IMG/VR virus record: IMGVR_UViG_3300009165_000005
DNA from: a virus
Taxonomy: Duplodnaviria; Heunggongvirae; Uroviricota; Caudoviricetes
Length of the DNA stretch: 64,000 bases
Reading direction: 5' to 3' (one strand)
The position numbers and the translations under genes were made by a program. Under the pieces are notes generated by a model that worked only from the letters and a program-made list of their open reading frames with translations, was not told the DNA's origin and made no database searches. Of this stretch, positions 2,355 through 31,061 are shown piece by piece (the first letter of the stretch is position 1; every line of letters starts with the position of its first letter).

Positions 2355-4471
2355 TTGAAGAAGCCCTCAAAAGTACTACGCCCCCTGAACTCATCTTGTT
2401 TACCTTCATTCCACTGAGAGACGGGGCGCAAGTAACCAACCACCCTTGAGTAAACCTCAGTAGCGGATGCGCATGTCGGACACTTAGTAACTTCACCAAC
2501 TAGGTATCCATGTTCTGAACAAATTGAGAAAGTGGGGGTTACGGTGAAGTAGGGTAAACGATAGTTAGTGCAGACCAATTGAACAAACTTCCTCACCAAG
2601 GCGGGATCTTTGACCCTTTCCCCCAACCAAAAGTGAAGAACCGTACCTCCCGTGTACTTAGTCTGGAACTCATCTTGATTCGACAACAACTCAAACGGAT
2701 CTGAGGTGGCCCCTATCGGAGGGAGGGAAGAGTTAGTGTAGGACTCAGGAGACTTCATCCCCGGATACTTCTTCCGATCAAGCTTGGCTAATCGATAGCT
2801 AGTACCTTCAGCAGGAGTGGCCTCCAGATTGAATAGGGACCCCGTAGCTTCCTGGTACCCCAGGATAAGACTCCGAATCCTACTCAGGATATCCAAACCT
2901 AAGTGACGACCGCGCGCTTCTAGCAGGGTGCTTCCTGTCAGATGCACTACAGCCTCATTGAGACCCACCAAACCTATCGTAGCGAAGTGGTTTGCCCAAT
3001 ACTGACCCGTTTGCTGCTTGACCGCTCGAAGGTAGAACTTGGTATAGGGGTACAGCCCCTCATCGGTTAGCTTTTCTAATACCTTTCGTTTGATGAGCAA
3101 ACTGTCACGGGCCTTTTCGAGCAAAGAGGTCAATCGGATGAAGAAATCCTCTTCGTTCGATGCCAAGTACCCCAACCTCGGAAGGTTAATCGTGACTACT
3201 CCAATAGATCCGGTTAGTGGATTTGCCCCAAACAGACCTCCTCCTCTGTACTGCAAGTCCCGGGTATCCAACCTCAACCGGCAACACATGCTTCGGGTAT
3301 CGTCTGGGGATAAGTCAGAATTCACAAAGTTAGCAAAATAAGGTATGCCATACTTAGCTGTAACCTCCCAAAGTTTGTTGTATCGTGGGTGGTTGTAGTC
3401 AAATCCCTGAGTTATGTTGTAGGTGGGAATTGGAAAGGTAAACACTCGACCCTTAGCGTCACCTTCAGACATGACTTCAAGGAACGCTTGATTGAACAGG
3501 TCCATCTCTTTCTGATAATCCCCGTAGGTACTATCCTGGAGCTCTCCACCAATAACTACAGGCTCATCTCGCATTCTACTCGGGACCTCGACATCCAAAG
3601 TAATATTGGTGAAAGGGGTCTGGAAACCAACTCTAGTTGACACATTCAAGTTGTAGATCCACTCTTGAAGAGCCTGCTTTATGGCAGGAAAATCTAGGTG
3701 ATCTCTTGCGATAAACGGGGCCAATAGCGTATCCACTGAGGAGAACGCTTGAGCGCCGGCTGTTTCACCTTGAAGGGTATAGAAGAAGTTTGTGATCTGC
3801 CCTAGAGCAGATTTGAAGTGCTTCGGAGGAGAACTCTCAATTTTACCAGAGACTCCTCGAAACCCTTCCCTAAGTAGGTCAGACAAGTCCCACCCAACAC
3901 AATACCCGGCAAGAAGACCTAGGTCATGTATGTGGAAATCCCCATTATCCTGTAATTCCCTGATATCTTGTGGGTAGACTCTCTCAACCCAATACTTTTT
4001 GGTGATCTCCGAGAACACATAGTTGTTAAGCCCCTGCAGGCTGTATGACATATTGGCGTTCTCCCTGACCTTCCAGTCCTCTTTCATCAAGTAGGAGTCG
4101 ATCAGATTAGCACTCAGAGAGGACGTTAGCTCTCGAACGAACCTTCGCTTTTCGCGATATAGGAGGTAAGCCCGTGCCACTTTGAAGTAACCGAGACTGA
4201 ATAGCACCTCCTCCACTCTATCCTGGATCTCCTCAACTGTTACTGTTTCCTGAAGACGACCTATCACGGTCTCAACTATCCTAGACAGATCCGAAGAAGC
4301 AAGGTGGAATTCAATTGAGTTAGCAGCTTTCTGGATAGCTTCTTTGATTCTGGTGGCGGAGAACTCCTGAAGGGTTCCGTCCCTCTTGATAATGAAGCCA
4401 GGTTCGGTTTCGATAGCAGGAAGTTTCACCAAGTTCAGCATCAGACCGACTCCTTTAGGACGCAAGGTCAT
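2351..4471 (-). CDS. nrdD: anaerobic ribonucleoside-triphosphate reductase, class III
   Basis: 706 aa. N-terminal ATP-cone. C-terminal Zn ribbon CPTCAS plus a glycyl-radical motif SRVVGYLRP. Overlaps nrdG by 4 nt. Confidence 0.85.
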   Translation of the reverse strand: MTLRPKGVGLMLNLVKLPAIETEPGFIIKRDGTLQEFSATRIKEAIQKAANSIEFHLASSDLSRIVETVIGRLQETVTVEEIQDRVEEVLFSLGYFKVARAYLLYREKRRFVRELTSSLSANLIDSYLMKEDWKVRENANMSYSLQGLNNYVFSEITKKYWVERVYPQDIRELQDNGDFHIHDLGLLAGYCVGWDLSDLLREGFRGVSGKIESSPPKHFKSALGQITNFFYTLQGETAGAQAFSSVDTLLAPFIARDHLDFPAIKQALQEWIYNLNVSTRVGFQTPFTNITLDVEVPSRMRDEPVVIGGELQDSTYGDYQKEMDLFNQAFLEVMSEGDAKGRVFTFPIPTYNITQGFDYNHPRYNKLWEVTAKYGIPYFANFVNSDLSPDDTRSMCCRLRLDTRDLQYRGGGLFGANPLTGSIGVVTINLPRLGYLASNEEDFFIRLTSLLEKARDSLLIKRKVLEKLTDEGLYPYTKFYLRAVKQQTGQYWANHFATIGLVGLNEAVVHLTGSTLLEARGRHLGLDILSRIRSLILGYQEATGSLFNLEATPAEGTSYRLAKLDRKKYPGMKSPESYTNSSLPPIGATSDPFELLSNQDEFQTKYTGGTVLHFWLGERVKDPALVRKFVQLVCTNYRLPYFTVTPTFSICSEHGYLVGEVTKCPTCASATEVYSRVVGYLRPVSQWNEGKQDEFRGRSTFEGFFK

Positions 4472-10446: not shown

Positions 10447-11850
10447 CTAGTCACTACCTTTCAAATTGGCAACTGGATAGAGTCGATGAGCTATCCTAGC
10501 TACTCCATTGGCCTCAAGAACTACGAGCACTTCATCCAAGTCTTTGTAACAATGCGAACATTCATCCAGAGGGGTATGAGCGTGATTTCCAACAATACCT
10601 TCAATTTTCACCCCAGCGAACTCGCGTTGGATGGACTTCATTTCCTCGTCAATCCAAAGTTGTTTGTGCTCCAGCTTCCGCTTAGCTTCCCCACGAGCCA
10701 TCTTCCTACCAGATCCATGATTGACGGAGCATGCAGTCTGATAGGCTCCAGGCTCCGCAAATAAGATTGCAGCCCCGTCCATCATTGAACCAGGGATTAA
10801 GCAGGGATGTCCAGTCGTCTCCCACTTGGTCCCGACGAGATCTGGATGGCCTGCGGGGAAGGCGCGAGTAGCTCCCTTTCGATGGACGAATCCGCGTTTG
10901 GTAGTGCCATCGGGGAGTACTAGGGTCTCCTCCTGAACTAAGTTGTGTGAGATCTCGTAGTAGACCTCGGAGTCCGCATTGAAGACCTCTTGGAGGGCCT
11001 CCTGAATTCCGTGAACGATGACATGCCGATTGGCAATGGCAAAGTTGGCCGCACTATTGTGGTACGCCCAGTATTCCTTACCGAGAGGTTCGTCGATGTA
11101 AAGCCATGAATCCTCTCGACGATTGGAGGACAAACCTCGAAGGTCAGCACCCTCATAGAAGTAGTGATTGGCCGTCTGCCAACCATACCCGCGGGAACCG
11201 CAATGGACCATGACGAATACCTCTCCAGTATCTCGGTCGGCCTGCAGTTCAAGAAAGTGATTTCCCCCGCCCACCGAACCCATTTGAGGGATTACTTTGG
11301 AGTAGGCTCTCTCGATCTTCGTGAAGTCAATTCCTTGAGGGACAGGGATGTATTGACGTTCGCAAAGGTCAGCAGGAACCCCAAGAGCCTTGGCTCCATA
11401 TCGGAGGATCTCTTGAGCTTCATTGTTGTCAAAGACGGGCATGAGTTTGGGACGAACTGAACCCACTCCGGTCGCAATTCGCTTCTCAACCTCTTGAATC
11501 CAAATCTCGCGCTTGTGCCAACTCCTGACCGCATTTGCCGAAAGATTAACCTTAAGGCACAAAACCCCGCAAGACACGTCGTACCCTGATCCAGCCTGAA
11601 TGAGAGTGTTTTCGGTGACAAGGACGCACCCGATAGGAACCCCGAAACCAGAGTGTCCATCAGGCATCAAGTAAGCGCCGATAATTCCATCGTAAGATGC
11701 ACCGTTGGCAAGCTGACTCCAGAGACTCTCTTCGCTTGCAGCGTAAAGCTCATCGGAGAAAAAGGCGTGGGCTTCCACCTTCATTGATCCGCAACGCGGA
11801 AGAACGTAGTGGGCGTCACCGACTTTCTGGGCCTGATATTTGAAGGACAT
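10447..11850 (-). CDS. rtcB: RNA-splicing ligase RtcB (3'-phosphate/5'-hydroxyl RNA ligase)
   Basis: 467 aa with RtcB metal-binding motifs (HCGSRGYGWQ, GGGNHFLELQ, SVNHGSGR). Confidence 0.85.
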   Translation of the reverse strand: MSFKYQAQKVGDAHYVLPRCGSMKVEAHAFFSDELYAASEESLWSQLANGASYDGIIGAYLMPDGHSGFGVPIGCVLVTENTLIQAGSGYDVSCGVLCLKVNLSANAVRSWHKREIWIQEVEKRIATGVGSVRPKLMPVFDNNEAQEILRYGAKALGVPADLCERQYIPVPQGIDFTKIERAYSKVIPQMGSVGGGNHFLELQADRDTGEVFVMVHCGSRGYGWQTANHYFYEGADLRGLSSNRREDSWLYIDEPLGKEYWAYHNSAANFAIANRHVIVHGIQEALQEVFNADSEVYYEISHNLVQEETLVLPDGTTKRGFVHRKGATRAFPAGHPDLVGTKWETTGHPCLIPGSMMDGAAILFAEPGAYQTACSVNHGSGRKMARGEAKRKLEHKQLWIDEEMKSIQREFAGVKIEGIVGNHAHTPLDECSHCYKDLDEVLVVLEANGVARIAHRLYPVANLKGSD

Positions 11851-12498: not shown

Positions 12499-14241
12499 CT
12501 ACCACTGATTGGATCTGCTCTTAGTGAGAGAAGATTTCATCACTGGTGCTTCAGGTTTCGGAGCTATCGGTGGCGAGTTGAGATCAACCTCTCCACCAAC
12601 GGAAGGCTCTTCCATAAAACTGCGCATCACCTGCTCCTGAGCAGCATTGCTGAAATCAATGTTGGCACCGTAGAGGACTTCCTGATCCGAGTCAGCCAAT
12701 GCCGAAACAGCTCGAGCCCGGTTCAATCCTCGATTCAAACCCATACGACTACCAGCGCTCTGAGCATAACGCTGATGACTTGCATACTTCGAACGAAGGT
12801 TATTGGATGCAGATGCAACACCAATTAAGCCTCGAGCTTCGAAGTCATGTCCAAGACTATCGAAGCCCATGACTGCAGCATTGAAGTCACCACGCTTAGC
12901 GGCAGCCTCGGCCTGATTCTGAACTTGAAGCAACTGAGCTCGAGCAACCAGTTCATCCACCTCTTTGGTGGGTGCTTTCTGTTCTTCCCCAGACTTCACG
13001 AACTGAACCTTGGCATTCCCTTCTACAGATTCAAGTTTCATTTTCCCGTCGGACCCGAGGATTTGATAGGACAACTTAGCATGAACAGCGTTGACCTGGC
13101 GAGGTCCAGGATGCTTCTGAGATGCAAGCTTGGCCTTAATGACAACGTCGATGGTTTCCTCAGATAGGATGTGAGGAATCTTGACTTGAGCCTCACCAGT
13201 TATGATCTCCTCGACATCAAAGTCGGAGAGTACCTCCACCAGCTGGTTGCCATCCCTTGGAGTCAACTCAATGATCAAGTCCTGAGCATAAGTGCTCAGA
13301 AGACCCCCAAGCTCCTTGCCGAAGGCCCCGAGAGCCGAGTCTGGGTCCTGAATGAAAGCGTAGTTCCCAGCTCCAGCTAAAGACAATGCATTCAGCAGCT
13401 CCTGGTTGGCATCAGGACCGTAACCAAAGGCTGAAACACTTACTCGACCTCGTTGCTGAGTGATGATACTCGAAATCCCCTCAACCGTAGTCACTCCCAT
13501 GTTAGGTTGCCCATCGGTGAAGAGAATGATCCTGGTGATGGTGGAATCCCCAAGATCCAAACCGGAAACAACCTCAAGCCCCTTGAGGAGACCTCCCGAG
13601 AGGCAGGTATTCCCATTGACTCTATATCCAGCTACAACCTTCTTGGCCCGGATCTTGGCATCAGGGGTCATCTTCTCCGCAGGGAAGTCAATACTTGAGT
13701 CCGTAGCAAAACTGACCAAACCAAAGGTGTCTTCCGCCGTAAGATGATCGATCAGCTTGGTCAGGGACCTCTTCGTGTAGTCCATCTTCATCCCAATCAT
13801 CGACCCTGATCGGTCAACTGCTGGGATAATGCACAGTGGCGGTCGGTGGGTTTGCCAATCGCTCTTGGGCGCAGTTACGGATACGACCAAGTGAAGGTCG
13901 GTGGCCTGATCAAAACGAACTTTTTCAAACGTGAACCGTGGATTTAATAGCATTGGTGCATTCTCGCTAATCAAGAACAGTGTCGGGATGCGGAGACTGG
14001 ACCAATCTCCCAAATCCAAACAATTCCAGTTGAGTCCTAGATTTTGCCCAAGCTCATAGAGCGCGGCTACGTCAGTATGAGATCCAAGCGTTAGCGCGGT
14101 CTCGGTCCCCCCTAATACACCACTTGATGGCTCCGGGAAAACCAAAAAGGGCCGCCTGACTTCAGACGGCCCTTCATCAGCTACGCCACCGGTCAAGCTA
14201 CTAGGTAGTAACCAGTCCCATGTTGTTGGGCTCGAGACCAA
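12499..14241 (-). CDS. von Willebrand factor type A (vWA) domain protein
   Basis: MIDAS motif AVDRSGSMIG...TDGQ in a 580-aa protein with a long divergent C-terminus. Confidence 0.6.
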   Translation of the reverse strand: MVSSPTTWDWLLPSSLTGGVADEGPSEVRRPFLVFPEPSSGVLGGTETALTLGSHTDVAALYELGQNLGLNWNCLDLGDWSSLRIPTLFLISENAPMLLNPRFTFEKVRFDQATDLHLVVSVTAPKSDWQTHRPPLCIIPAVDRSGSMIGMKMDYTKRSLTKLIDHLTAEDTFGLVSFATDSSIDFPAEKMTPDAKIRAKKVVAGYRVNGNTCLSGGLLKGLEVVSGLDLGDSTITRIILFTDGQPNMGVTTVEGISSIITQQRGRVSVSAFGYGPDANQELLNALSLAGAGNYAFIQDPDSALGAFGKELGGLLSTYAQDLIIELTPRDGNQLVEVLSDFDVEEIITGEAQVKIPHILSEETIDVVIKAKLASQKHPGPRQVNAVHAKLSYQILGSDGKMKLESVEGNAKVQFVKSGEEQKAPTKEVDELVARAQLLQVQNQAEAAAKRGDFNAAVMGFDSLGHDFEARGLIGVASASNNLRSKYASHQRYAQSAGSRMGLNRGLNRARAVSALADSDQEVLYGANIDFSNAAQEQVMRSFMEEPSVGGEVDLNSPPIAPKPEAPVMKSSLTKSRSNQW

Positions 14242-14744: not shown

Positions 14745-14844
14745 GGTGCACCTTTACCTTCGCCTTCGCCTTTTCATGATGTTTCTCCGTAACAGTTGCA
14801 CACAACCATTAAACACCGAAGCCCCTTGTTAGGGGCTTCGTCAG

Positions 14845-15192
14845 TGGAAGTGCGGGGAATCGAACCCCGGTCCGCCAGCCGTCCAGTACCTCTCTCATTC
14901 ACGTGTGTAGTTGCCATGTCCCTAGCAACTGAGTTCGAGGGTTCGGCCTTCGACCTAGCTCCCTGTTTCTCTCACCTATGCCCCGGGAGCCCGGAACACC
15001 AGCCAGCCTTTGTGGTTTGCAATCCTACCCACTACCAAGACAATCTTGTGGAGGACCGGCTGAAGCTACTTACGCAGCTTCAGCAATTGCGTTATCATTG
15101 GCAATTATGCGTTTCTCGATTGTTCAAGAGCGGATCGAGAGCCGCTCACACGCGAGAGAACCTTTCATCCAACGTCGAAGCCAATCACTCCC
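14845..15192 (-). ncRNA. ssrA: tmRNA (SsrA), tag peptide ANDNAIAEAA
   Basis: 5' end GGGAGTGATTGGCTTCGACG (tmRNA-like). 3' tRNA-like T-arm CGGGGTTCGATTCCCCG. Acceptor GGGAGTG/CACTTCC has a G3:U70 pair (alanine identity). Internal reading frame GCC AAT GAT AAC GCA ATT GCT GAA GCT GCG TAA = ANDNAIAEAA-stop at 15070-15102. Confidence 0.85.
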
Positions 15193-15937: not shown

Positions 15938-16014
15938 TGGCGACCCTGGAGGGACTCGGACCCCCAACTTTTGGTTCCGTAGACCAACGCTCTATCCAAT
16001 TGAGCTACAGGATC
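15938..16014 (-). tRNA. tRNA-Arg (ACG), CCA encoded
   Basis: Acceptor GATCCTG/CAGGGTC; anticodon loop CTACGGA. Confidence 0.8.
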
Positions 16015-16020
16015 ATGAGG

Positions 16021-16094
16021 CACCCCCGGCAGAACTCGAATCTGCAACCTGAAGATTAGAAATCTCCTGCTCTATCCGATTGAGCTACGAGGGC
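16021..16094 (-). tRNA. tRNA-Arg (TCT)
   Basis: Anticodon loop TTTCTAA; T-loop TTCGAGT. Confidence 0.75.
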
Positions 16095-17645: not shown

Positions 17646-17860
17646 GGGCGGCCGTTCCCAGCTACCCTCCACCACTACTCAAGCATGACCCACTGAGTAG
17701 GGGAGCCACCTTAACACAAGAACTTACCGGAGACAAGGAGATGTGAAGACGACTAAGCTCCTCCCAGTTGAAGGACGGACAGCTCACGCAATCCGACGAG
17801 ACTCGAACTCGCATTCTTGAATGCTAAATTCAATGTAATCTTCACGAACATTCTCCAGCA

Positions 17861-20574: not shown

Positions 20575-21186
20575 TTACACCGAGTGACCATAGCGAAGTG
20601 CTACTTTTCCAGCAATGAACTCATCTTCTGTGCAGGGTGACTTACGTTCTGAAACCTTAACTTCATGAGGTGTGAAGGAAACCCCAGTTTCTTCTACCGC
20701 AGCCTGATAGGACGGAATCATTTCAGACCAGTCTTCCCAAAGGTCCACCATCCTAATTGTGGGGTGTTCCAGAAGGATTCTCTGGATCTGTTCGACCTTG
20801 AACTCCTTGGTATCCACGCGGTCTGACAGGTGCACCTCGTCGAAGTTCAAGCCTTTCTGCCCCAACAGCGCATGAATCCGATCCGTGAAAACTTCCCTTG
20901 GACGCCCCGTAAGAAGGACCACGTAACTATACTCGTCCTTCATTTCCTCTCGAGCTGCCTTGACAGTTGACTCGATCCACCAGTCTGATGGTACCTTCGG
21001 AAGACAAGGAGGGATCATCGACTCAATCTGGAACCACCAACCATCCTTGTCTTCCCACCAATCTGGCGGATGTGGGCTGCGGAACAGCGTCCCGTCGAAG
21101 TCGAATACACAGAGCCGACGGATCACCTTAGATTGCTCAAAGATCGAATACAAGTTTGACAAGATCGAATGGCCATTTCCAACCAC
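20575..21186 (-). CDS. HAD-superfamily phosphatase (possible polynucleotide 3'-phosphatase)
   Basis: HAD motif I CVFDFDGTLF (DxDGT). Size and context resemble PNK-phosphatase-like phage proteins. Confidence 0.55.
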   Translation of the reverse strand: MVGNGHSILSNLYSIFEQSKVIRRLCVFDFDGTLFRSPHPPDWWEDKDGWWFQIESMIPPCLPKVPSDWWIESTVKAAREEMKDEYSYVVLLTGRPREVFTDRIHALLGQKGLNFDEVHLSDRVDTKEFKVEQIQRILLEHPTIRMVDLWEDWSEMIPSYQAAVEETGVSFTPHEVKVSERKSPCTEDEFIAGKVALRYGHSV

Positions 21187-21941: not shown

Positions 21942-22132
21942 CGCAGCTAGCGGGATTTGAACCCGCGATCTACTCCGTGACAGGGAGCTGGGGACGGCCG
22001 GACTCCCCTATAACTGCATAACTTGCGGAGACAAGAAACGTAAAGACGTTTGGGTCAGCTGCTCTGCCAACTGAGCTATACCTTGGCTTTTTGAAGGCCA
22101 AGGCAATGGGACTCGAACCCATGACCTGCTGA
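21942..22132 (-). other. composite tRNA-like locus: orphan 3' half followed by its matching 5' half, then a third T-arm/acceptor element
   Basis: On the minus strand: ...A TCAGC AGGTC ATGGG TTCGAGT CCCAT TGCCTTG G, then linker CCTTCAAAAAGC, then CAAGGTA TA GCTC AGTTGGCA GAGC A GCTGA. The acceptor strands pair 7/7 (CAAGGTA/TGCCTTG) and the anticodon-stem strands pair 5/5 (GCTGA/TCAGC), but the order is 3' half then 5' half. Further downstream a T-arm GCGGGTTCAAATCCCGC plus TAGCTGC pairs with GCAGCTG embedded in the D-arm region. Confidence 0.5.
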
Positions 22133-22167
22133 TTAGTTGTAGTCCTTACTGCATTCTCCGCAAAAAC

Positions 22168-22857
22168 TTACTCGCTTGGCAGCTCTTGGATGAAGTCCCA
22201 GATGTCCGAAAACTCATGCAGAGTGACAGCGTAGGCGGGATCAATGTCGATCCCATACCAGGAAGCTCCGAGAGCCTCAACCGGTTTCTGGCTTGAACGA
22301 CTACCCGCGAACGGGTCAAGGACCAGGCTCCCTTTGGTGATCGACACCTCCCCAAGACGGTCCCAAAGCTCTTTGGGTTTCTCGTAGGGATGGCTTCTAC
22401 CCTGGCGGACCGCAGGGATGTGAAGGCTATTCGAGTAGGCCTTGTCAGTTCGCTTCTCCGCCGGCCCCTTAGTAGCAAAGAAGATGGGGTCCCACCCAGA
22501 GCGCCAGACACCCCCGGTGCCAACGTAGCTCTTGTCCCAAGAGATGATCGTCGTCGGGAACCACCCGGACAGGGACAGCGAGAATCCCGTGTCTGGAATC
22601 CCCTTCCAGTCCCCGAACAGGTAAAGGTGGCAACCGTCCTTTGCTACCCTGTGGAGCTGCTGTAGGGCTCGGATCAGGAACGAGATGGGACCGTAGACCC
22701 TTGCTGCAGCCCCGTCGTCCTTGCCTCGAACTGGTGACCCCTGTGAGTAGGGCCAGTCGAACAGGATCGTGTCAAAGGTGTCCGCGGGGACCCCCTTGAG
22801 GACCTTCAGGCAATCTCCGTTGACGACGCCCCCTCGAACCAAGCCATTGACTTCCAT
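22168..22857 (-). CDS. DNA methyltransferase (N6-adenine/N4-cytosine, beta class)
   Basis: Motif IV ILFDWPYSQGS (a DPPY variant) precedes motif I VLDPFAGSRSS. Start placed at MEVNGL to clear the tRNA-Arg overlap. Confidence 0.65.
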   Translation of the reverse strand: MEVNGLVRGGVVNGDCLKVLKGVPADTFDTILFDWPYSQGSPVRGKDDGAAARVYGPISFLIRALQQLHRVAKDGCHLYLFGDWKGIPDTGFSLSLSGWFPTTIISWDKSYVGTGGVWRSGWDPIFFATKGPAEKRTDKAYSNSLHIPAVRQGRSHPYEKPKELWDRLGEVSITKGSLVLDPFAGSRSSQKPVEALGASWYGIDIDPAYAVTLHEFSDIWDFIQELPSE

Positions 22858-22858
22858 G

Positions 22859-22934
22859 TGGCGCCCCAAAGCCGATTCGAACGGCTGACCTATCGGTTAG
22901 GAACCGATTGCTCTGTCCTCTGAGCTACTAGGGC
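22859..22934 (-). tRNA. tRNA-Arg (CCT), CCA encoded
   Basis: Acceptor GCCCTAG/TTGGGGC; anticodon stem ATCGG/CCGAT; loop TTCCTAA; T-loop TTCGAAT. Confidence 0.8.
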
Positions 22935-26102: not shown

Positions 26103-26228
26103 TTCAAACCCTCAACCAGGTCGTTCATACACCAGTTGAAGATTGTTTTAACAATGAATCGAGACAAGGATTGAGAAGATATAAGCCTTTCGGCTCCGCC
26201 GTGTCTGCCATTCCACCACAAACGAGTT

Positions 26229-26308
26229 TCCTCACTAGGAGGGACTCGAACCCTCACGTCCTTTCGGACAGCGGATTTTCAATTGTAATCTTCTACAGCA
26301 TTCTCGAC
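26229..26308 (-). other. tRNA-like fragment (T-arm plus variable-arm hairpin, no matching 5' acceptor or D-arm)
   Basis: GAGGGTTCGAGTCCCTC T-arm preceded by a GTCCGAAAGGAC GNRA hairpin. No complement to the 3' acceptor CTAGTGA upstream. Confidence 0.35.
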
Positions 26309-26407
26309 TGGTACCATCATCGGGGCTCGAACCCGAACTCCATAGGAACAATGCCCTGGGGTACGTATCCCCAACACTGCGAGTCTTCCAATTTCCTCCA
26401 TGATGGT
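26309..26407 (-). tRNA. atypical 99-nt tRNA with a 21-nt structured insertion at the anticodon-loop position, CCA encoded
   Basis: Perfect acceptor ACCATCA/TGATGGT; T-arm TCGGGTTCGAGCCCCGA; 3' ACCA. Anticodon stem CAGTG/CATTG encloses TTGGGGATACGTACCCCAGGG instead of a 7-nt loop. Anticodon unresolved. Confidence 0.5.
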
Positions 26408-27375: not shown

Positions 27376-27775
27376 TAGGTTCCAGATTCCACCATTGACA
27401 AGAAATCGTGCGAGACGTCTATTGTTTCCGGTAATGTAGTCCACGCACAGCATTCAGTGGCGGAATCTGGTATTCGGAGCCATACACTAACTTGCTTTAG
27501 ATTGCAAGAGAAAAGTTTGGCCCTGACAAGGGATGGTAATGAGGGGCTTATGGCCTACGCATTGATGTGTCCAGAGATCCCTGGACTTGCATCCGCTCGT
27601 CCCGCGCCTTAGGGTCAGTTACTACCCACTGGAGTTCCTTACTAGGGAGCTCGAACTGGCGCCATCGCATAATCCCTCGCGAGATCAGTCGCTACTTTAG
27701 GACCGTTATTGTACTCACTACCGGCATTCAGGACCGATTGGACAATACACCGGAGATCACGTTAAGTCAAGTTGA

Positions 27776-27849
27776 TCAGAGTAAGAGGACTTGAACCTCC
27801 AATCTCGTGATCCCGAACCACGCGCTCTACCAAACTGAGCTACACCCTG
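27776..27849 (-). tRNA. tRNA-Pro (CGG)
   Basis: Acceptor CAGGGTG/TACTCTG; anticodon stem CGTGG/TCACG; loop TTCGGGA. Confidence 0.75.
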
Positions 27850-27888
27850 ATGAACCACGAAGACAAGAATTCGAAAGAGGAACGTACG

Positions 27889-27960
27889 GCGTCCTGACCA
27901 CTAGACGATCCCCGCATAGGTTGGAGCGGGGAGAGGGATTCGAACCCACGTGTCCGGCTT
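27889..27960 (-). other. orphan tRNA 3' half (T-arm, acceptor, CCA), a 6-nt linker, then an orphan 5' half with a perfectly complementary acceptor
   Basis: Minus strand: GTGGG TTCGAAT CCCTC TCCCCGC T CCA, linker ACCTAT, then GCGGGGA TC GTCT AGTGGTCA GGAC G. Acceptor strands GCGGGGA/TCCCCGC are 7/7 complementary but in 3'-then-5' order. No full tRNA can be assembled on either side. Confidence 0.5.
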
Positions 27961-27996
27961 GGATGGCAATGTACTCCTTCAGGCATTCTTCGTGAT

Positions 27997-28072
27997 TGGT
28001 GGCTGAGGTCGGGATCGAACCGACTACGCACAGATTTTCAGTCTGTCGCTCTACCATTTGAGCTACTCAGCC
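27997..28072 (-). tRNA. tRNA-Phe (GAA), CCA encoded
   Basis: Acceptor GGCTGAG/CTCAGCC; anticodon stem ACAGA/TCTGT; loop CTGAAAA; T-loop TTCGATC. Confidence 0.85.
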
Positions 28073-28077
28073 ATTAG

Positions 28078-28162
28078 TGCATCAGGAGAGAATCGAACTC
28101 TCACGGGAATTACCCCACTAGATTTTGAGGCTAGCGTGTCTGCCTAGTTCCACCACTGATGC
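28078..28162 (-). tRNA. tRNA-Leu (CAA), class II
   Basis: Acceptor GCATCAG/CTGATGC; anticodon loop CTCAAAA; long variable arm. Confidence 0.75.
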
Positions 28163-28250: not shown

Positions 28251-28326
28251 ATGGACCAGAGACAAGGGGTGTGAAGAGGGTTATTTTCTCCAATTGAATT
28301 GTACTCCCCACGAGCATTCTCTAGTT

Positions 28327-28403
28327 TGGTTGGCCCCATCAGATTCGAACTGATCACTTCACGCTTATCAGGCGTACGCTCTAACCAACTGAGCTACGGG
28401 CCA
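28327..28403 (-). tRNA. tRNA-Ile (GAT), CCA encoded
   Basis: Anticodon stem TACGC/GCGTG; loop CTGATAA; T-loop TTCGAAT. Confidence 0.8.
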
Positions 28404-28821
28404 ATAACTTCAAAGCATCCCACACCCCATCAGGAAGCGGGATCGTAGTCTGAATCATACCTATCTTCTGGTACTCTTGAAATTCCTTCAAAGCTTGTTC
28501 ACACACATCATCGCTTATATCAATGGTGGCAGTGATTCCAGTCTCCCTGACTTCGACAGTACCAACTGCGAAGTCACGCATGCAGATAGGTTCTGATACC
28601 GTCCAAACGAGGTTACCCAGAAGATTCAGCACTTCTTGGGAGTTCAACTCCAGCGTCGGAAGATCTGGAACTTGAAGTTGACCCCAGGCATGTCCAAACA
28701 TTATATCTTGGACGAAGGATCCGGGACCATCTTGACAATGAGGGCAGGGCATATCCCAAGATACACCGATGAAAGGCGAAGACAAGAGAGTTGAAGACAA
28801 GGGAGCCCTTCTAAATGCCAC
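28381..28821 (-). CDS. hypothetical protein (146 aa)
   Basis: Intact ORF; C-terminus overlaps tRNA-Ile by ~23 nt. Confidence 0.4.
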   Translation of the reverse strand: MAFRRAPLSSTLLSSPFIGVSWDMPCPHCQDGPGSFVQDIMFGHAWGQLQVPDLPTLELNSQEVLNLLGNLVWTVSEPICMRDFAVGTVEVRETGITATIDISDDVCEQALKEFQEYQKIGMIQTTIPLPDGVWDALKLLARSSVG

Positions 28822-28905
28822 TCGAATAGGTTTCCCTACTCGGCAGGATCTGCCCCTGCAAAGCTCCCGGGCGTAAGCCCCTGGTAATGTAGTCCTCAGT
28901 GCATT

Positions 28906-28999
28906 CTTCGCTTAGTAGTCCCTCCCGGACTCGAACCGGGACGTTCACAAGGAACTGCGGGTTTTAGGCCCGCCGCGGCTGCCTTTACGCCAAGGGACC
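28906..28999 (-). tRNA. tRNA-Leu (TAA), class II
   Basis: Acceptor GGTCCCT/AGGGACT; anticodon stem GCGGG/CCCGC; loop CCTAAAA; long variable arm; T-loop TTCGAGT. Confidence 0.75.
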
Positions 29000-30753: not shown

Positions 30754-30826
30754 TGACGCTAGGGGGATTTGGACCCACCGTTGGATGAGTGAAAGTCATC
30801 TCGCCTTACCATTAGCGGATAGCGCC
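30754..30826 (-). tRNA. tRNA-Glu (TTC)
   Basis: Acceptor GGCGCTA/TAGCGTC; anticodon stem GATGA/TCATC; loop CTTTCAC; T-loop TCCAAAT. Confidence 0.7.
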
Positions 30827-30830
30827 GAGG

Positions 30831-30905
30831 TGTCCCTGATCGGATTCGAACCGATGTTCCAAGATCGAGAATCTTGTTGCCTAGTCCGGGCTAGCAGACA
30901 GGGAC
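30831..30905 (-). tRNA. tRNA-Glu (CTC)
   Basis: Acceptor GTCCCTG/CAGGGAC; anticodon stem CAAGA/TCTTG; loop TTCTCGA; T-loop TTCGAAT. Confidence 0.7.
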
Positions 30906-30978
30906 GTGATAGAGAGACAAGGAACGAACCAAAGGGGTCAATGTTCGAGATTGTACTTCAGTCCTGCATTCTCTCCAG

Positions 30979-31061
30979 CGGAAGGGAAGGGATTCGAACC
31001 CCCAGAGCTGTTACACTCGATTGTTTTCAGGACAATGCCCCTCACCAATAGGAGCCCTTCC
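30979..31061 (-). tRNA. tRNA-Ser (TGA), class II
   Basis: Acceptor GGAAGGG/CCCTTCC; anticodon stem ATTGT/ACAAT; loop CCTGAAA; long variable arm. Confidence 0.65.

What the first reader, a model, noticed from the sequence alone, without database searches (positions are those of the whole stretch)
27889..27960. Second 3'-half/5'-half arrangement with complementary acceptor strands and encoded CCA
Minus strand: T-arm GTGGG-TTCGAAT-CCCTC, acceptor TCCCCGC, T, CCA. Then a 6-nt linker ACCTAT. Then GCGGGGA-TC-GTCT-AGTGGTCA-GGAC, which is a perfect 7/7 acceptor complement plus a canonical D-arm. Neither half has its partner in the normal position. The upstream neighbour is a complete tRNA-Phe and the downstream neighbour a complete tRNA-Pro. 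Two independent loci with this inverted half order make random decay less likely and suggest a recurring rearrangement or processing mechanism.
Basis: partly seen in the sequence, partly recalled or inferred. Interest (0 to 1): 0.7.

Follow-up and report, generated by a model that had tools for sequence, protein, structure and literature searches.

The report
Phage Y RNA that mimics tRNA
The "inverted tRNA halves" are the core of one 137-base phage non-coding RNA of the known Y RNA (YrlA) type, which folds like a circularly permuted tRNA and partners the Ro60/Rsr protein encoded in the same window; it is a new example of a known kind, not a broken or split tRNA gene.

Summary
On the minus strand, 27949-27891 reads T-arm, 7-nt acceptor 3' strand, U-CCA, 6-nt linker, perfectly complementary acceptor 5' strand, then D-arm. 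No canonical tRNA covers it.

It is not two tRNA halves. It is the tRNA-like domain of one 137-nt RNA (27993-27857) whose ends pair into a long bulged stem. Rfam's YrlA (Y RNA-like) model matches it end to end, though below Rfam's cut-off. A covariance model built only from other viral contigs scores it 95.5 bits (E about 3e-22).

Three paralogues with the same architecture lie in the window, along with four shorter relatives that have the same stem. All sit between tRNA genes. The window also encodes the Y RNA partner protein Ro60/Rsr and an RtcB ligase.

Homologues in other large phage contigs show strong covariation: 92% of cells paired, and 23 of 25 pairs with double changes. The tRNA 15:48 tertiary pair also co-varies.

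YrlA RNAs are already described as resembling circularly permuted tRNAs and are known in phages. The 7-bp acceptor stem plus encoded N73-CCA resembles Mycobacterium smegmatis YrlA, which RNase P opens. Cleavage here is inferred, not shown.

Verdict: new member of a known kind, of moderate interest.

The parts
27857..27993 (-). Complete Y RNA-like gene 'c1' (137 nt), which contains the finding. It lies 3 nt after the CCA of tRNA-Phe and 6 nt before tRNA-Pro.
   Evidence: Rfam RF02553 YrlA matches model positions 1-114 of 114, 29.2 bits. Independent model R2 gives 95.5 bits, E 3e-22. No ORF of 100 aa or more overlaps it.
27987..27993 (-). Terminal stem S1, 5' strand ACGAAGA. It pairs 7/7 with 27857-27863.
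   Evidence: MFE and constrained folds. S1 co-varies in homologues (helix 1).
27857..27863 (-). Terminal stem S1, 3' strand UCUUCGU.
27984..27991 (-). GAAGAAUG, the local version of the 5' GNCGAAN0-1G motif proposed as the Rsr-binding site of YrlA RNAs. It has A instead of C at position 3, as do seven of the eight window copies; c8 has CUGAAUG.
   Evidence: Aligned to 'gCgaAUG' of the Rfam consensus. Motif definition from PMC4201824. Copies compared.
27974..27981 (-). Stem S2, 5' strand UGAAGGAG. It pairs with 27872-27879 (CUCUUUCG) and is followed by UAC (27971-27973), which corresponds to the conserved YUAY.
   Evidence: Every paralogue has an S2 of different sequence.
27864..27879 (-). S2 3' strand (27872-27879) and the 3' internal loop AAUUCUUG (27864-27871). 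The loop holds CUUG, which is invariant in the 8 sequences aligned.
27954..27956 (-). CGG, which pairs with CCG at 27887-27889. This 3-bp helix stands in the place of the top of a tRNA anticodon stem.
   Evidence: Helix 2.
27933..27949 (-). T-arm GUGGG-UUCGAAU-CCCUC, preceded by C48 at 27950.
27909..27932 (-). Acceptor-like hairpin. Its parts are the 3' strand UCCCCGC (27926-27932), U73 (27925), CCA (27922-27924), linker ACCUAU (27916-27921) and the 5' strand GCGGGGA (27909-27915). The predicted RNase P site lies between U27916 and G27915.
   Evidence: 7/7 pairs. There is a compensatory change in orthologue L100 (UCCCCAC/GUGGGGA). NCCA recurs in homologues. Cleavage is inferred from the M. smegmatis precedent.
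27891..27906 (-). D-arm GUCU-AGUGGUCA-GGAC, with A14, G15, G18 and G19. It is preceded by U8 and C9 (27907-27908).
   Evidence: G15:C48 is Levitt-compatible.
27997..28072 (-). Upstream neighbour tRNA-Phe(GAA). The same tRNA-Phe | Y RNA | tRNA-Pro order is found in related contigs L100 and L107.
27774..27850 (-). Downstream neighbour tRNA-Pro(CGG). RNase P cleavage at its 5' end would define the 3' end of c1.
   Evidence: the processing step is inferred
22025..22161 (-). Paralogue c2. Its unconstrained MFE fold gives the full YrlA architecture with a 9-bp acceptor hairpin. tRNA-Asp follows it.
   Evidence: Rfam YrlA 50.5 bits, E 7e-9. R1 40.7 bits. R2 79.3 bits. Fold.
17727..17858 (-). Paralogue c3, directly after tRNA-Thr(GGU). 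It has A15:U48.
   Evidence: Rfam 25 bits. R2 60.5 bits, E 4e-13. Orthologue at L068:6350-6475.
26159..26307 (-). Paralogue c4, with a type-II-like D-arm and an extra hairpin.
   Evidence: Regex scan. R2 30.7 bits, E 2.5e-5. Fold.
28776..28911 (-). c7: same terminal stem and motifs, but a different internal domain with no T-arm.
   Evidence: (20.2 bits)
28257..28323 (-). c5: a 67-nt 'mini' Y RNA consisting of stem only, between tRNA-Ile and tRNA-Leu.
   Evidence: (20.7 bits)
30912..30975 (-). c6: a 64-nt 'mini' Y RNA after tRNA-Glu(CUC).
   Evidence: (17.6 bits)
27392..27460 (-). c8: a 69-nt 'mini' Y RNA-like stem with 6/7 S1 pairs.
   Evidence: (15.6 bits); this is the weakest of the eight
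44023..45609 (-). Ro60/Rsr orthologue (528 aa), the expected protein partner. It is on the same strand, 16 kb away.
   Evidence: Pfam TROVE plus vWA_Ro60. Full-length match to D. radiodurans Rsr 2nvo (E 1e-17), Xenopus Ro60 1yvp, and Thermus phage Ro60 9l5y/9kop.
10447..11850 (-). RtcB RNA ligase (467 aa). rtcB is genetically linked to rsr and yrlA in Salmonella.
   Evidence: Pfam PF01139, E 1e-84. The rsr/Y RNA/rtcBA operon is described in PMC7790460 and PMC4201824.

Best explanation
The finding is the tRNA-like domain of a phage-encoded Y RNA of the YrlA type.

**The RNA.** One 137-nt RNA (27993-27857, minus strand) is transcribed together with the surrounding tRNA genes. It is probably released by the same enzymes that trim them. 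Its two ends pair into a long bulged stem (S1, internal loop with GAAGAAUG/CUUG, S2), and this stem is the presumed binding site for the phage's own Ro60/Rsr ring protein. The middle folds into a T-arm, an 'acceptor' hairpin and a D-arm that pack like the elbow and acceptor arm of a tRNA. The RNA therefore looks like a circularly permuted tRNA that has no anticodon loop.

**Expected function.** By analogy with characterised Y RNAs, it would tether or gate Rsr, for example towards an exoribonuclease such as PNPase, in RNA quality control or repair during infection.

**Likely processing.** This copy has a tRNA-length 7-bp acceptor stem followed by U73-CCA, a 6-nt linker ending in U(-1), and G+1. 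It is therefore a likely RNase P substrate. Cleavage between 27916 and 27915, followed by 3' trimming, would give a two-piece RNA of 72 nt and 59 nt. The pieces would be held together by base pairing and would end in CCA, as shown experimentally for Mycobacterium smegmatis YrlA.

**Shown versus inferred.** Shown here: sequence, fold, family resemblance, covariation, paralogues, orthologues, and the presence of rsr and rtcB. Inferred: Rsr binding, co-transcription, RNase P cleavage, and function.
For: 1. Rfam YrlA (RF02553) aligns over the whole model (1-114) to 27854-27993. The alignment includes the terminal stem, the AAUGC and CUUGUC blocks, T-arm, hairpin and D-arm (29.1-29.2 bits; E 0.01 in a 20-kb search, 7e-5 in the local search).
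2. Model R2 was built from 7 sequences of other viral contigs only. It ranks this locus first in the window (95.5 bits, E 3e-22). The next hits are c2 (79.3), c3 (60.5) and c4 (30.7). Junctions of tandem tRNAs reach at most 27.4 bits and are mostly partial matches without the terminal stem.
3. Model R1, built from c1 and four phage homologues, finds c2 at E 2e-9 and full-length homologues in many IMG/VR contigs.
4. Covariation on 16 distinct sequences (two of these rows later proved to be tandem-tRNA junctions): 92.0% of cells paired against 64.1% in shuffles and 43-49% when partners are slid. 23 of 25 pairs have changes on both sides, including all 7 acceptor pairs and all 6 S1 pairs.
5. The tertiary Levitt pair co-varies: G15:C48 in 20 sequences, A15:U48 in 6, and 1 exception in 27. 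This is the feature Chen et al. used to argue for a tRNA fold.
6. The orthologue in L100 and L107 sits in the same tRNA-Phe | Y | tRNA-Pro slot. It carries compensatory changes in the acceptor stem (G-C to A-U) and in the T stem.
7. The window encodes Rsr/Ro60 on the same strand and also RtcB.
8. Published precedent supports each part of the model. YrlA is a tRNA mimic found in 22 phages. M. smegmatis YrlA has a 7-bp acceptor, is cut by RNase P in vivo and in vitro, and ends in CCA (PMC4201824). YrlA 'resemble circularly permuted tRNAs' (10.1101/312249). A phage Ro60 binds phage Y RNA-like RNAs and host PNPase (PMC12135203).
9. Among 18 homologues with acceptor loops of 7 nt or more, 8 have CCA at loop positions 2-4, where about 0.3 would be expected by chance. 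17 have C at position 2. At least five different acceptor-stem sequences are involved.
Against: - The Rfam score (29.2 bits) is far below the family's gathering score (69).
- The proposed Rsr-binding motif is GNAGAAUG here, not GNCGAAN0-1G.
- rsr is 16 kb away, not within the 4 kb typical of published YrlA genes. No Y RNA was found within 10 kb of rsr in relatives L004 and L005.
- The single-sequence fold is not unusually stable (z = -1.3), and its MFE does not form the D-arm.
- CCA is not kept in the closest orthologue (L100: ACUA) nor in L126 and L130 (UCUA). It is therefore not under strict selection.
- No expression, binding or cleavage data exist for this phage.
- The alignments used for covariation were fitted to the model and include two tandem-tRNA false positives (L098 and window 30801).
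Confidence: 0.88

Rival explanations
1. A true circularly permuted tRNA gene, as in Cyanidioschyzon merolae or Thermofilum. In this model the 3'-half-linker-5'-half transcript is circularised at its ends, here perhaps by the phage RtcB. It is then opened at the acceptor loop by RNase P and a 3' nuclease, giving a working tRNA.
For: - The gene order, the 7/7 acceptor complementarity, the encoded U73-CCA and the short linker are what such a gene would show.
- An RtcB ligase is encoded in the window.
- Wang et al. raise this possibility for YrlA RNAs in general.
Against: - No anticodon arm can be formed. After the D-arm only 3 bp (CCG/CGG) pair. The next two positions are U.C and A.G. The sequence then runs into the 8-bp S2 and 7-bp S1 helices that extend to the RNA ends.
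- There is no bulge-helix-bulge motif; the internal loop is 5 x 8 nt.
- The flanks carry the conserved Y RNA blocks shared by seven other RNAs in the window. Four of these have no tRNA-like core at all.
- Orthologues of c2 close the acceptor stem with a UUCG tetraloop.
- No splicing endonuclease is known in bacteria (established knowledge; also stated).
Confidence: 0.03
2. A decayed junction of two tandem copies of one tRNA gene. The T-arm, acceptor 3' strand and CCA would come from the upstream copy, and the acceptor 5' strand and D-arm from the downstream copy, with the outer halves lost. This would be a non-functional remnant. It is also the known false-positive type for YrlA covariance models.
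For: - Chen et al. warn that dimeric tRNAs can score as YrlA.
- Real tandem-tRNA junctions in this window and in L098, L127 and L131 do give partial hits.
- The acceptor end (GCGGG.../...CCCGC-U-CCA) resembles that of the phage's own tRNA-Gly(CCC).
Against: - The hit is full length and includes both strands of the terminal stem, whereas tandem-tRNA hits cover only about model positions 40-100.
- The flanks are conserved and co-vary across unrelated contigs.
- The orthologue in L100/L107 keeps the structure through compensatory changes.
- Two precise deletions would have to recur at four loci.
- A tandem-tRNA junction may well be the evolutionary origin of such domains, but this locus is a maintained gene.
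Confidence: 0.04
3. A tRNA-like element with a job unrelated to Rsr. Examples are a processing 'punctuation' signal within the tRNA operon, a decoy for host tRNA-targeting nucleases, or a two-piece tmRNA-like RNA. In this case the Y RNA-like stem would be only a structural clamp.
For: - The Rsr-binding motif deviates from the published consensus (A for C).
- rsr is 16 kb away.
- All eight copies sit at tRNA borders.
- Two-piece tmRNA genes share the layout of T-arm, acceptor, CCA, linker, then 5' acceptor (established knowledge). Rfam gives weak tmRNA T-loop hits.
Against: - The same stem with the same motifs occurs in 'mini' copies that have no tRNA-like part (c5, c6, c8). The stem, not the tRNA mimic, is therefore the common denominator, as in Y RNAs.
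- The genome carries a full-length Ro60/Rsr.
- There is no tag reading frame, no pseudoknots and no G3.U70. A normal one-piece tmRNA is present at 14844-15192.
- The Rfam tmRNA_permuted model does not hit the locus.
Confidence: 0.05

Closest known systems
YrlA (Y RNA-like A; Rfam RF02553), the tRNA-mimicking Y RNA of Salmonella and more than 250 bacteria and phages (Chen et al. 2014, PMC4201824; crystal structure PDB 6CU1, Wang et al. 2018)
   Same: - A terminal stem formed by the 5' and 3' ends, with a conserved purine-rich 5' motif.
- YUAY/UAC, then V region, T-arm, closed acceptor-like hairpin, D-arm and a short anticodon-stem-like helix, in that order.
- tRNA invariants (U8, A14, G18G19, UUCRA) and a co-varying 15:48 pair.
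- An rsr gene, and rtcB, in the same genome on the same strand.
   Different: - Scores below Rfam's gathering threshold (29 against 69 bits).
- The motif is GNAGAAUG rather than GNCGAAN0-1G.
- It lies in a tRNA array 16 kb from rsr, not within 4 kb.
- It is one of at least 4 (up to 8) paralogues.
- The acceptor stem is 7 bp with a 10-nt loop that begins UCCA. Salmonella has a 6-bp stem with a small closed loop.
Mycobacterium smegmatis YrlA (the RNase P-cleaved, CCA-tailed form)
   Same: [quoted passage not shown] This is the layout that made the M. smegmatis RNA a substrate for RNase P in vitro and in vivo. The two halves stayed bound to Rsr, and the 5' half ended in CCA.
   Different: Here the full CCA is encoded, whereas in M. 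smegmatis CA is added after cleavage. Cleavage has not been tested here. The RNA is phage-encoded and flanked by tRNAs.
Phage Ro60 / Y RNA-like systems: mycobacteriophages, CcrColossus, Bacillus phage G (Chen 2014), and Thermus phage phiLo Ro60-Yrl1/2-PNPase (PMC12135203)
   Same: A phage carries its own Ro60 orthologue together with Y RNA-like RNAs. The window's Rsr matches the phiLo Ro60 structure sequences.
   Different: The phiLo Yrls lie next to the Ro60 gene and are stem-bulge-stem RNAs. Here the RNAs are dispersed through a 39-tRNA array and half of them carry tRNA-like domains. I found no Y RNA-like hit in the tRNA arrays of CcrColossus.
Circularly permuted tRNA genes (Cyanidioschyzon merolae, Soma et al. 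2007; Thermofilum pendens)
   Same: The 3' half lies upstream of the 5' half. The acceptor is closed by a linker that follows CCA, and the ends of the transcript pair with each other.
   Different: There is no bulge-helix-bulge motif and no anticodon arm that could be restored. No splicing endonuclease is present in bacteria. The product is not a decoding tRNA.
Two-piece (permuted) tmRNA of alpha-proteobacteria and cyanobacteria
   Same: The gene order is permuted. The tRNA-like 3' end with CCA comes before the 5' acceptor strand, and the loop between them is removed by processing.
   Different: There is no mRNA-like tag, no pseudoknots and no G3.U70 alanine identity. There is no Rfam tmRNA_permuted hit. 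The phage has a separate standard tmRNA.

Membership tests
YrlA / Y RNA-like (RF02553) | Reaches Rfam's curated gathering score (69 bits) | tested here: not met
   29.1-29.2 bits for c1 and 50.5 bits for c2. Both matches are full length (model 1-114).
YrlA / Y RNA-like (RF02553) | 5' and 3' ends pair into a long stem. The internal order is V region, T stem-loop, acceptor-like stem-loop (AS), then D stem-loop. | tested here: met
   Rfam alignment. Folds. R2 alignment. Covariation in all five helices.
YrlA / Y RNA-like (RF02553) | GNCGAAN0-1G motif near the 5' end (the proposed Rsr contact) | tested here: inconclusive
   c1 has GAAGAAUG. Seven of the eight window copies, and the L100, L068, L019 and L101 homologues, have G-N-A-G-A-A-U-G (A instead of C). 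The Phosso-type homologues have GCCGA(A)UG.
YrlA / Y RNA-like (RF02553) | Conserved YUAY at the start of the V region | tested here: inconclusive
   c1 has GUAC (UAC kept, first base a purine). c2 has CUAC. c3 and c4 have UUAC.
YrlA / Y RNA-like (RF02553) | tRNA tertiary signature: a Levitt pair that switches between G15:C48 and A15:U48 | tested here: met
   26 of 27 distinct homologues are compatible (20 G:C, 6 A:U). c1 has G15:C48.
YrlA / Y RNA-like (RF02553) | Encoded near (within 4 kb of) and on the same strand as a Ro60/Rsr (TROVE) gene | tested here: not met
   rsr is present on the same strand (44023-45609). It lies 16 kb from c1 and 13-26 kb from the other seven copies (c6 nearest, c3 farthest). 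No Y RNA was found in the 10-kb flanks of rsr in L004 and L005.
YrlA / Y RNA-like (RF02553) | Bound by Rsr; modified by TruB and DusA | not testable with these tools
   Needs RIP or EMSA, and modification mapping.
RNase P-cleaved YrlA (M. smegmatis type) | Seven-base-pair acceptor stem stacked on a 5-bp T stem | tested here: met
   UCCCCGC/GCGGGGA pairs 7/7 and is directly adjacent to the T-arm.
RNase P-cleaved YrlA (M. smegmatis type) | Cleavage at the -1/+1 site and a CCA 3' end on the 5' fragment | not testable with these tools
   U73-CCA is encoded, with U at -1 and G at +1. Cleavage itself needs an M1 RNA assay or end mapping.
Circularly permuted tRNA gene | 3' half upstream of the 5' half, with complementary acceptor strands | tested here: met
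Circularly permuted tRNA gene | Transcript ends form a bulge-helix-bulge motif whose excision restores a 5-bp anticodon stem and a 7-nt loop | tested here: not met
   Only 3 bp follow the D-arm. After that come the S2 and S1 helices with a 5 x 8 nt internal loop. No anticodon loop is present.
Canonical tRNA / tandem-tRNA junction | Each half belongs to a complete cloverleaf detectable by tRNA finders | tested here: not met
   ARAGORN and Rfam RF00005 find no tRNA between 27851 and 27996.
Two-piece tmRNA | Tag reading frame, pseudoknots, G3.U70, and a match to RF04321/RF00023 | tested here: not met
   The only hit is an 18-nt T-loop match of 7-11 bits. The acceptor has G3-C70.

The most novel reading that the evidence does not exclude
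The c1-type phage Y RNAs would be genuinely opened in vivo. These are the ones with a 7-bp acceptor stem, N73-C74(-C-A), a short linker ending in U and G+1. RNase P would cut the acceptor loop, and the encoded CCA would be exposed. The result would be a two-piece, Rsr-bound tRNA mimic with a free, possibly chargeable acceptor end. Its U73 and G1-C72/C2-G71/G3-C70 recall glycine identity (recalled from memory, not tested).

Such an RNA, made from within the phage's own tRNA operon, could act in several ways. It could be a decoy or sensor for host toxins that attack tRNA acceptor ends or CCA. It could also recruit Rsr, RtcB and exonucleases to damaged tRNAs.

The family of eight Y RNAs with different effector domains would then be a phage toolkit. 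It would direct one Ro60 ring to several partners.
Probability: 0.2. Interest if true: 0.7.

Novelty: new member of a known kind. Interest (0 to 1): 0.4.

Why it matters
For annotation, the finding explains recurrent "half-tRNA" or pseudo-tRNA signals inside phage tRNA arrays. They are Y RNA genes, not decay products.

For biology, a very large phage appears to carry a whole set of Y RNAs. Its relatives have contigs of 183-512 kb. The set has four copies with tRNA-like domains and four without, and the phage also encodes its own Ro60/Rsr, RtcB and a further RNA-repair domain protein. All the RNAs are interleaved with 39 tRNAs and a tmRNA. Characterised organisms have about two to four Y RNAs. 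Such a phage would therefore be a good system for asking what the tRNA-like module of YrlA does, which is still unknown.

The copy in question, with its encoded CCA and tRNA-length acceptor stem, is the natural candidate. It could show whether RNase P opening of Y RNAs, so far seen only in M. smegmatis, is more general.

Tried and rejected
- **Permuted or split tRNA reading.** Rejected because no anticodon arm or BHB motif can be formed.
- **Tandem-tRNA junction artefact.** Checked explicitly. Real junctions give only partial, lower-scoring hits. Examples are 30801-30858, 15987-16050, 28047-28103, L098:626-755 and the CcrColossus arrays.
- **Home-made regex and pairing descriptor for T-arm, hairpin, D-arm**. 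Too permissive: 50 hits, many of them tandem tRNAs. Abandoned in favour of covariance models.
- **Degenerate pattern AGAATG..GTTCGA..CTTGTCT in IMG/VR**. It returned 118 or more loci, mostly chance matches. Only about 8 contigs held real homologues after CM filtering.
- **Common register for stem S2 in the model-fitted alignment**. This failed because S2 differs in length and register between subfamilies, so S2 is supported only by per-sequence folds.
- **blastn against deposited phages**. It found only tRNA matches plus one unannotated homologue in Sinorhizobium phage Phosso. The window's phage is not in that collection.
- **Rfam on the Phosso and UViG homologues**. It barely detects them, so Rfam alone would miss much of this phage clade.
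- **Promoter and terminator scan around c1**. Nothing above chance, which is consistent with co-transcription with the tRNAs but does not prove it.
- **Supplementary tables of Chen et al.** Not held, and two reviews were not held. I could therefore not check whether any published phage YrlA lies in a tRNA array.
Full report
**Observation.** The minus strand between 27949 and 27891 reads as follows:
- GUGGG-UUCGAAU-CCCUC, a T-arm with one U.U mismatch
- UCCCCGC
- U
- CCA
- ACCUAU
- GCGGGGA
- UC
- GUCU-AGUGGUCA-GGAC, a D-arm

The two 7-nt strands are perfectly complementary. ARAGORN places complete tRNA-Phe (27997-28072) and tRNA-Pro (27774-27850) on either side. It finds no tRNA in between. The Rfam tRNA model finds none either.

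**Context.** The window looks like part of a very large phage.
- It has 38 tRNA genes plus a tmRNA on the minus strand between 14.8 and 32.7 kb, and one more tRNA at 46.3 kb.
- It encodes NrdD, a chaperonin, DNA methylases, an RtcB RNA ligase (10447-11850) and a 528-aa protein with TROVE and Ro60-vWA domains (44023-45609).
- That 528-aa protein matches D. radiodurans Rsr (2nvo, E 1e-17), Xenopus Ro60 and the Thermus phage phiLo Ro60 over its full length.
- Its closest relatives are on IMG/VR contigs of 32 kb (71% identity) and 512 kb (61% identity). In deposited phages the closest is Myxococcus phage Mx1 at 38%.

**What the locus is.** A permissive Rfam scan of the tRNA region gave full-length matches to YrlA (Y RNA-like, RF02553):
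- 22022-22161: 50.5 bits, E 7e-9
- 27854-27993: 29.1 bits
- 17724-17858: 25 bits

Strand ACGAAGA (27993-27987) pairs with UCUUCGU (27863-27857). Strand UGAAGGAG pairs with CUCUUUCG. The blocks AAUGC, UAC and CUUGUC match the family consensus.

The MFE fold contains both stems, the core of the T stem and the 7-bp hairpin. A fold constrained to the T, acceptor and D helices is energetically equivalent to the MFE.

The unit is thus one 137-nt RNA. Its tRNA-like part is T-arm, closed acceptor hairpin and D-arm. Its 'anticodon stem' is replaced by the long stem formed by the RNA's own ends.

This is the published anatomy of YrlA. Chen et al. 2014 defined YrlA by these features (PMC4201824):
- a 5' GNCGAAN0-1G motif
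- YUAY
- V, T, AS and D elements
- tRNA tertiary pairs

Wang et al. [quoted passage not shown]

**Independent statistical support.** Model R1 was built from this locus plus four homologues: two in Sinorhizobium phage Phosso and two in a 480-kb IMG/VR contig.
- R1 found c2 in the window at E 2e-9.
- R1 found full-length homologues in many viral contigs.

A second model, R2, was built only from seven hits in five other contigs, with no window sequence. With filters off it gave:
- 27859-27991: 95.5 bits, E about 3e-22, the best hit in the window
- c2: 79.3 bits
- c3: 60.5 bits
- c4 (26175-26293): 30.7 bits

Junctions between tandem tRNAs are the false-positive type that Chen et al. warn about. 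They reach at most about 27 bits and mostly match only the central part of the model.

**Covariation.** On the 16 distinct sequences of alignment A4:
- 92.0% of cells form standard pairs. Shuffles give 64.1% (0 of 500 reach the observed value). Sliding the partners gives 43-49%.
- 23 of 25 pairs have changes on both sides.
- All five helices co-vary: terminal stem, 3-bp anticodon-like helix, T, acceptor and D.

Two caveats apply. The alignment was fitted to the model. It also contains two tandem-tRNA false positives.

The tertiary 15:48 pair switches between G:C (20 sequences) and A:U (6 sequences), with one exception in 27.

The orthologue in contigs L100 and L107 occupies the same tRNA-Phe | Y | tRNA-Pro slot. 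It differs by compensatory changes in the acceptor stem (UCCCCAC/GUGGGGA) and in the T stem (GUGAG/CUCAC).

**A family, not a single locus.** The window holds four RNAs with the tRNA-like core:
- c1: 27857-27993
- c2: 22025-22161
- c3: 17727-17858
- c4: 26159-26307

Four more have the same terminal stem and motifs (N7-AUGC ... CUUG-N7') but no tRNA-like core:
- c5: 28257-28323
- c6: 30912-30975
- c8: 27392-27460
- c7: 28776-28911

All eight are on the minus strand. At least six of them directly abut a tRNA gene. The seven hits with 7/7 pairing in a simple descriptor scan are exactly c1-c7.

Related contigs show the same habit. Examples are tRNA-Arg(CCU) | Y | tRNA-Asp in L100 and L068, and tRNA-Thr(GGU) | Y in L068. 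Some contigs carry five to eight such RNAs. In Phosso and L002 the homologues stand alone with promoter-like boxes and terminators.

No promoter or terminator signal above chance flanks c1. I therefore infer that it is co-transcribed with the tRNAs and released by their processing.

**The encoded CCA.**
- Among 18 homologues whose acceptor loop is 7 nt or longer, 8 have CCA at loop positions 2-4. About 0.3 would be expected by chance.
- 17 of the 18 have C at position 2.
- At least five unrelated acceptor-stem sequences are involved.
- CCA is not strictly kept, however. L100 has ACUA, and L126 and L130 have UCUA.

The precedent is M. smegmatis YrlA. It was the only one of the three tested with a 7-bp acceptor stem. 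It is cut by RNase P in vitro and in vivo, and its 5' fragment gains CA to end in CCA. Both halves stay with Rsr.

Locus c1 has several features that favour bacterial RNase P. The preference for U(-1), G+1 and RCCA is established knowledge, not tested here:
- a 7-bp acceptor stem stacked on a 5-bp T stem
- U73-CCA
- U at -1
- G at +1

I therefore consider cleavage between 27916 and 27915 likely (about 50%), giving pieces of 72 and 59 nt. Partial conservation of CCA is what one expects if the host CCA-adding enzyme can complete the end.

**Rivals.**
- A true permuted tRNA gene fails. Only three pairs follow the D-arm, there is no anticodon loop and no bulge-helix-bulge motif, and the flanks are conserved Y RNA sequence.
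- A decayed tandem-tRNA junction fails on conservation, compensatory change, and recurrence with a common stem. It may still be how such domains arose. The acceptor end resembles that of the phage's own tRNA-Gly(CCC), and all eight tRNAs printed in that comparison also encode CCA.
- A two-piece tmRNA fails because the tmRNA features are absent and a normal tmRNA is present.
- A tRNA-like element unrelated to Rsr cannot be excluded without binding data. The variant motif (GNAGAAUG) and the 16-kb distance from rsr keep this open at a low level.

**Comparison with what is known.**
- Phage Y RNAs are known in mycobacteriophages, CcrColossus and phage G.
- A phage Ro60-Yrl-PNPase complex has been characterised.
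- In the literature I could search, I found no description of Y RNAs dispersed inside phage tRNA arrays, of eight paralogues in one phage, or of encoded CCA in the acceptor loop. The tRNA arrays of CcrColossus show none. These are extensions of a known class, not a new one.

**Verdict.**
- The interpretation as inverted tRNA halves is partly right in form and wrong in kind.
- The locus is a YrlA-type Y RNA (confidence about 0.88).
- It is a new member of a known kind, with moderate interest (0.4).
- The interest lies mainly in the possible RNase P-opened, CCA-ended form and in the unusually large Y RNA family embedded in a phage tRNA array.

Noticed in passing
window 28257-28323, 30912-30975, 27392-27460 (minus strand): Three 64-70-nt 'mini' RNAs have the same terminal stem and AAUGC/UAC/CUUGUC blocks as the Y RNAs but no tRNA-like core. 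They sit between tRNA genes. They are reminiscent of YrlB or the stem-only Yrls of Thermus phage phiLo.
   Followed up: partly
window 28776-28911 (minus strand): A 136-nt RNA with the Y RNA terminal stem (GCGAAGA-AUGC ... CUUG-UCUUCGC) but a different multi-hairpin internal domain. It lies directly after tRNA-Leu(UAA) and overlaps a mechanical ORF (28381-28821) that is probably not a gene at that end.
   Followed up: partly
window 26309-26407 (minus strand): ARAGORN calls a 99-nt tRNA-Pro(GGG) here, but the Rfam tRNA model gives no hit. It abuts Y RNA c4. It may be a tRNA with an insertion, or a miscall.
   Followed up: no
window 30980-31061 (minus strand): An Rfam tRNA-Sec-like match (42.1 bits, below the gathering score of 47) that ARAGORN does not call. 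It could be an unusual long-arm tRNA or another tRNA-like RNA next to mini Y RNA c6.
   Followed up: no
window 46343-46416; L004 8848-8920; L005 8761-8833: A tRNA with anticodon CUA (amber suppressor, labelled Pyl by ARAGORN) lies 0.7-1.1 kb upstream of rsr. It is conserved in the same position in both related contigs.
   Followed up: partly
window 20575-21186 and 10447-11850 (minus strand): RNA-repair genes accompany the tRNA/Y RNA array: a protein with the HAD domain of 'Swiss Army Knife' RNA repair proteins, and RtcB. A second vWA-domain protein (12499-14241) lies near RtcB.
   Followed up: partly
window 22168-22869 (minus strand): A DNA methylase ORF sits between tRNA-Arg(CCU) and Y RNA c2. 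In relatives L100 and L068 those two are adjacent. It looks like an insertion into the array.
   Followed up: no
L001 (Sinorhizobium phage Phosso PV764938) about 2975-3106 and 2736-2869, minus strand of the locus: Two tandem, unannotated Y RNA-like genes with their own terminators lie in a 469-kb deposited phage. One has ACCCCGC-A-CCA-ACUGA-GUGGGGU. They are missed by Rfam at its thresholds.
   Followed up: partly
L125, L126, L130, L127 (IMG/VR contigs of 40-436 kb): Each carries several Y RNA-like genes with GCCGA(A/C)UG ... ACUUGC stems. They include stem-only forms of 60-70 nt and forms whose D-arm is of the long-arm (Leu-like) tRNA type. This suggests repeated capture of different tRNA modules.
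   Followed up: partly
L127 4425-4504 and 4630-4705: Tandem tRNAs whose neighbouring acceptor strands are mutually complementary across a 26-30-nt spacer. They illustrate how a tandem-duplicate junction can mimic the permuted layout, and perhaps how such domains originate.
   Followed up: no
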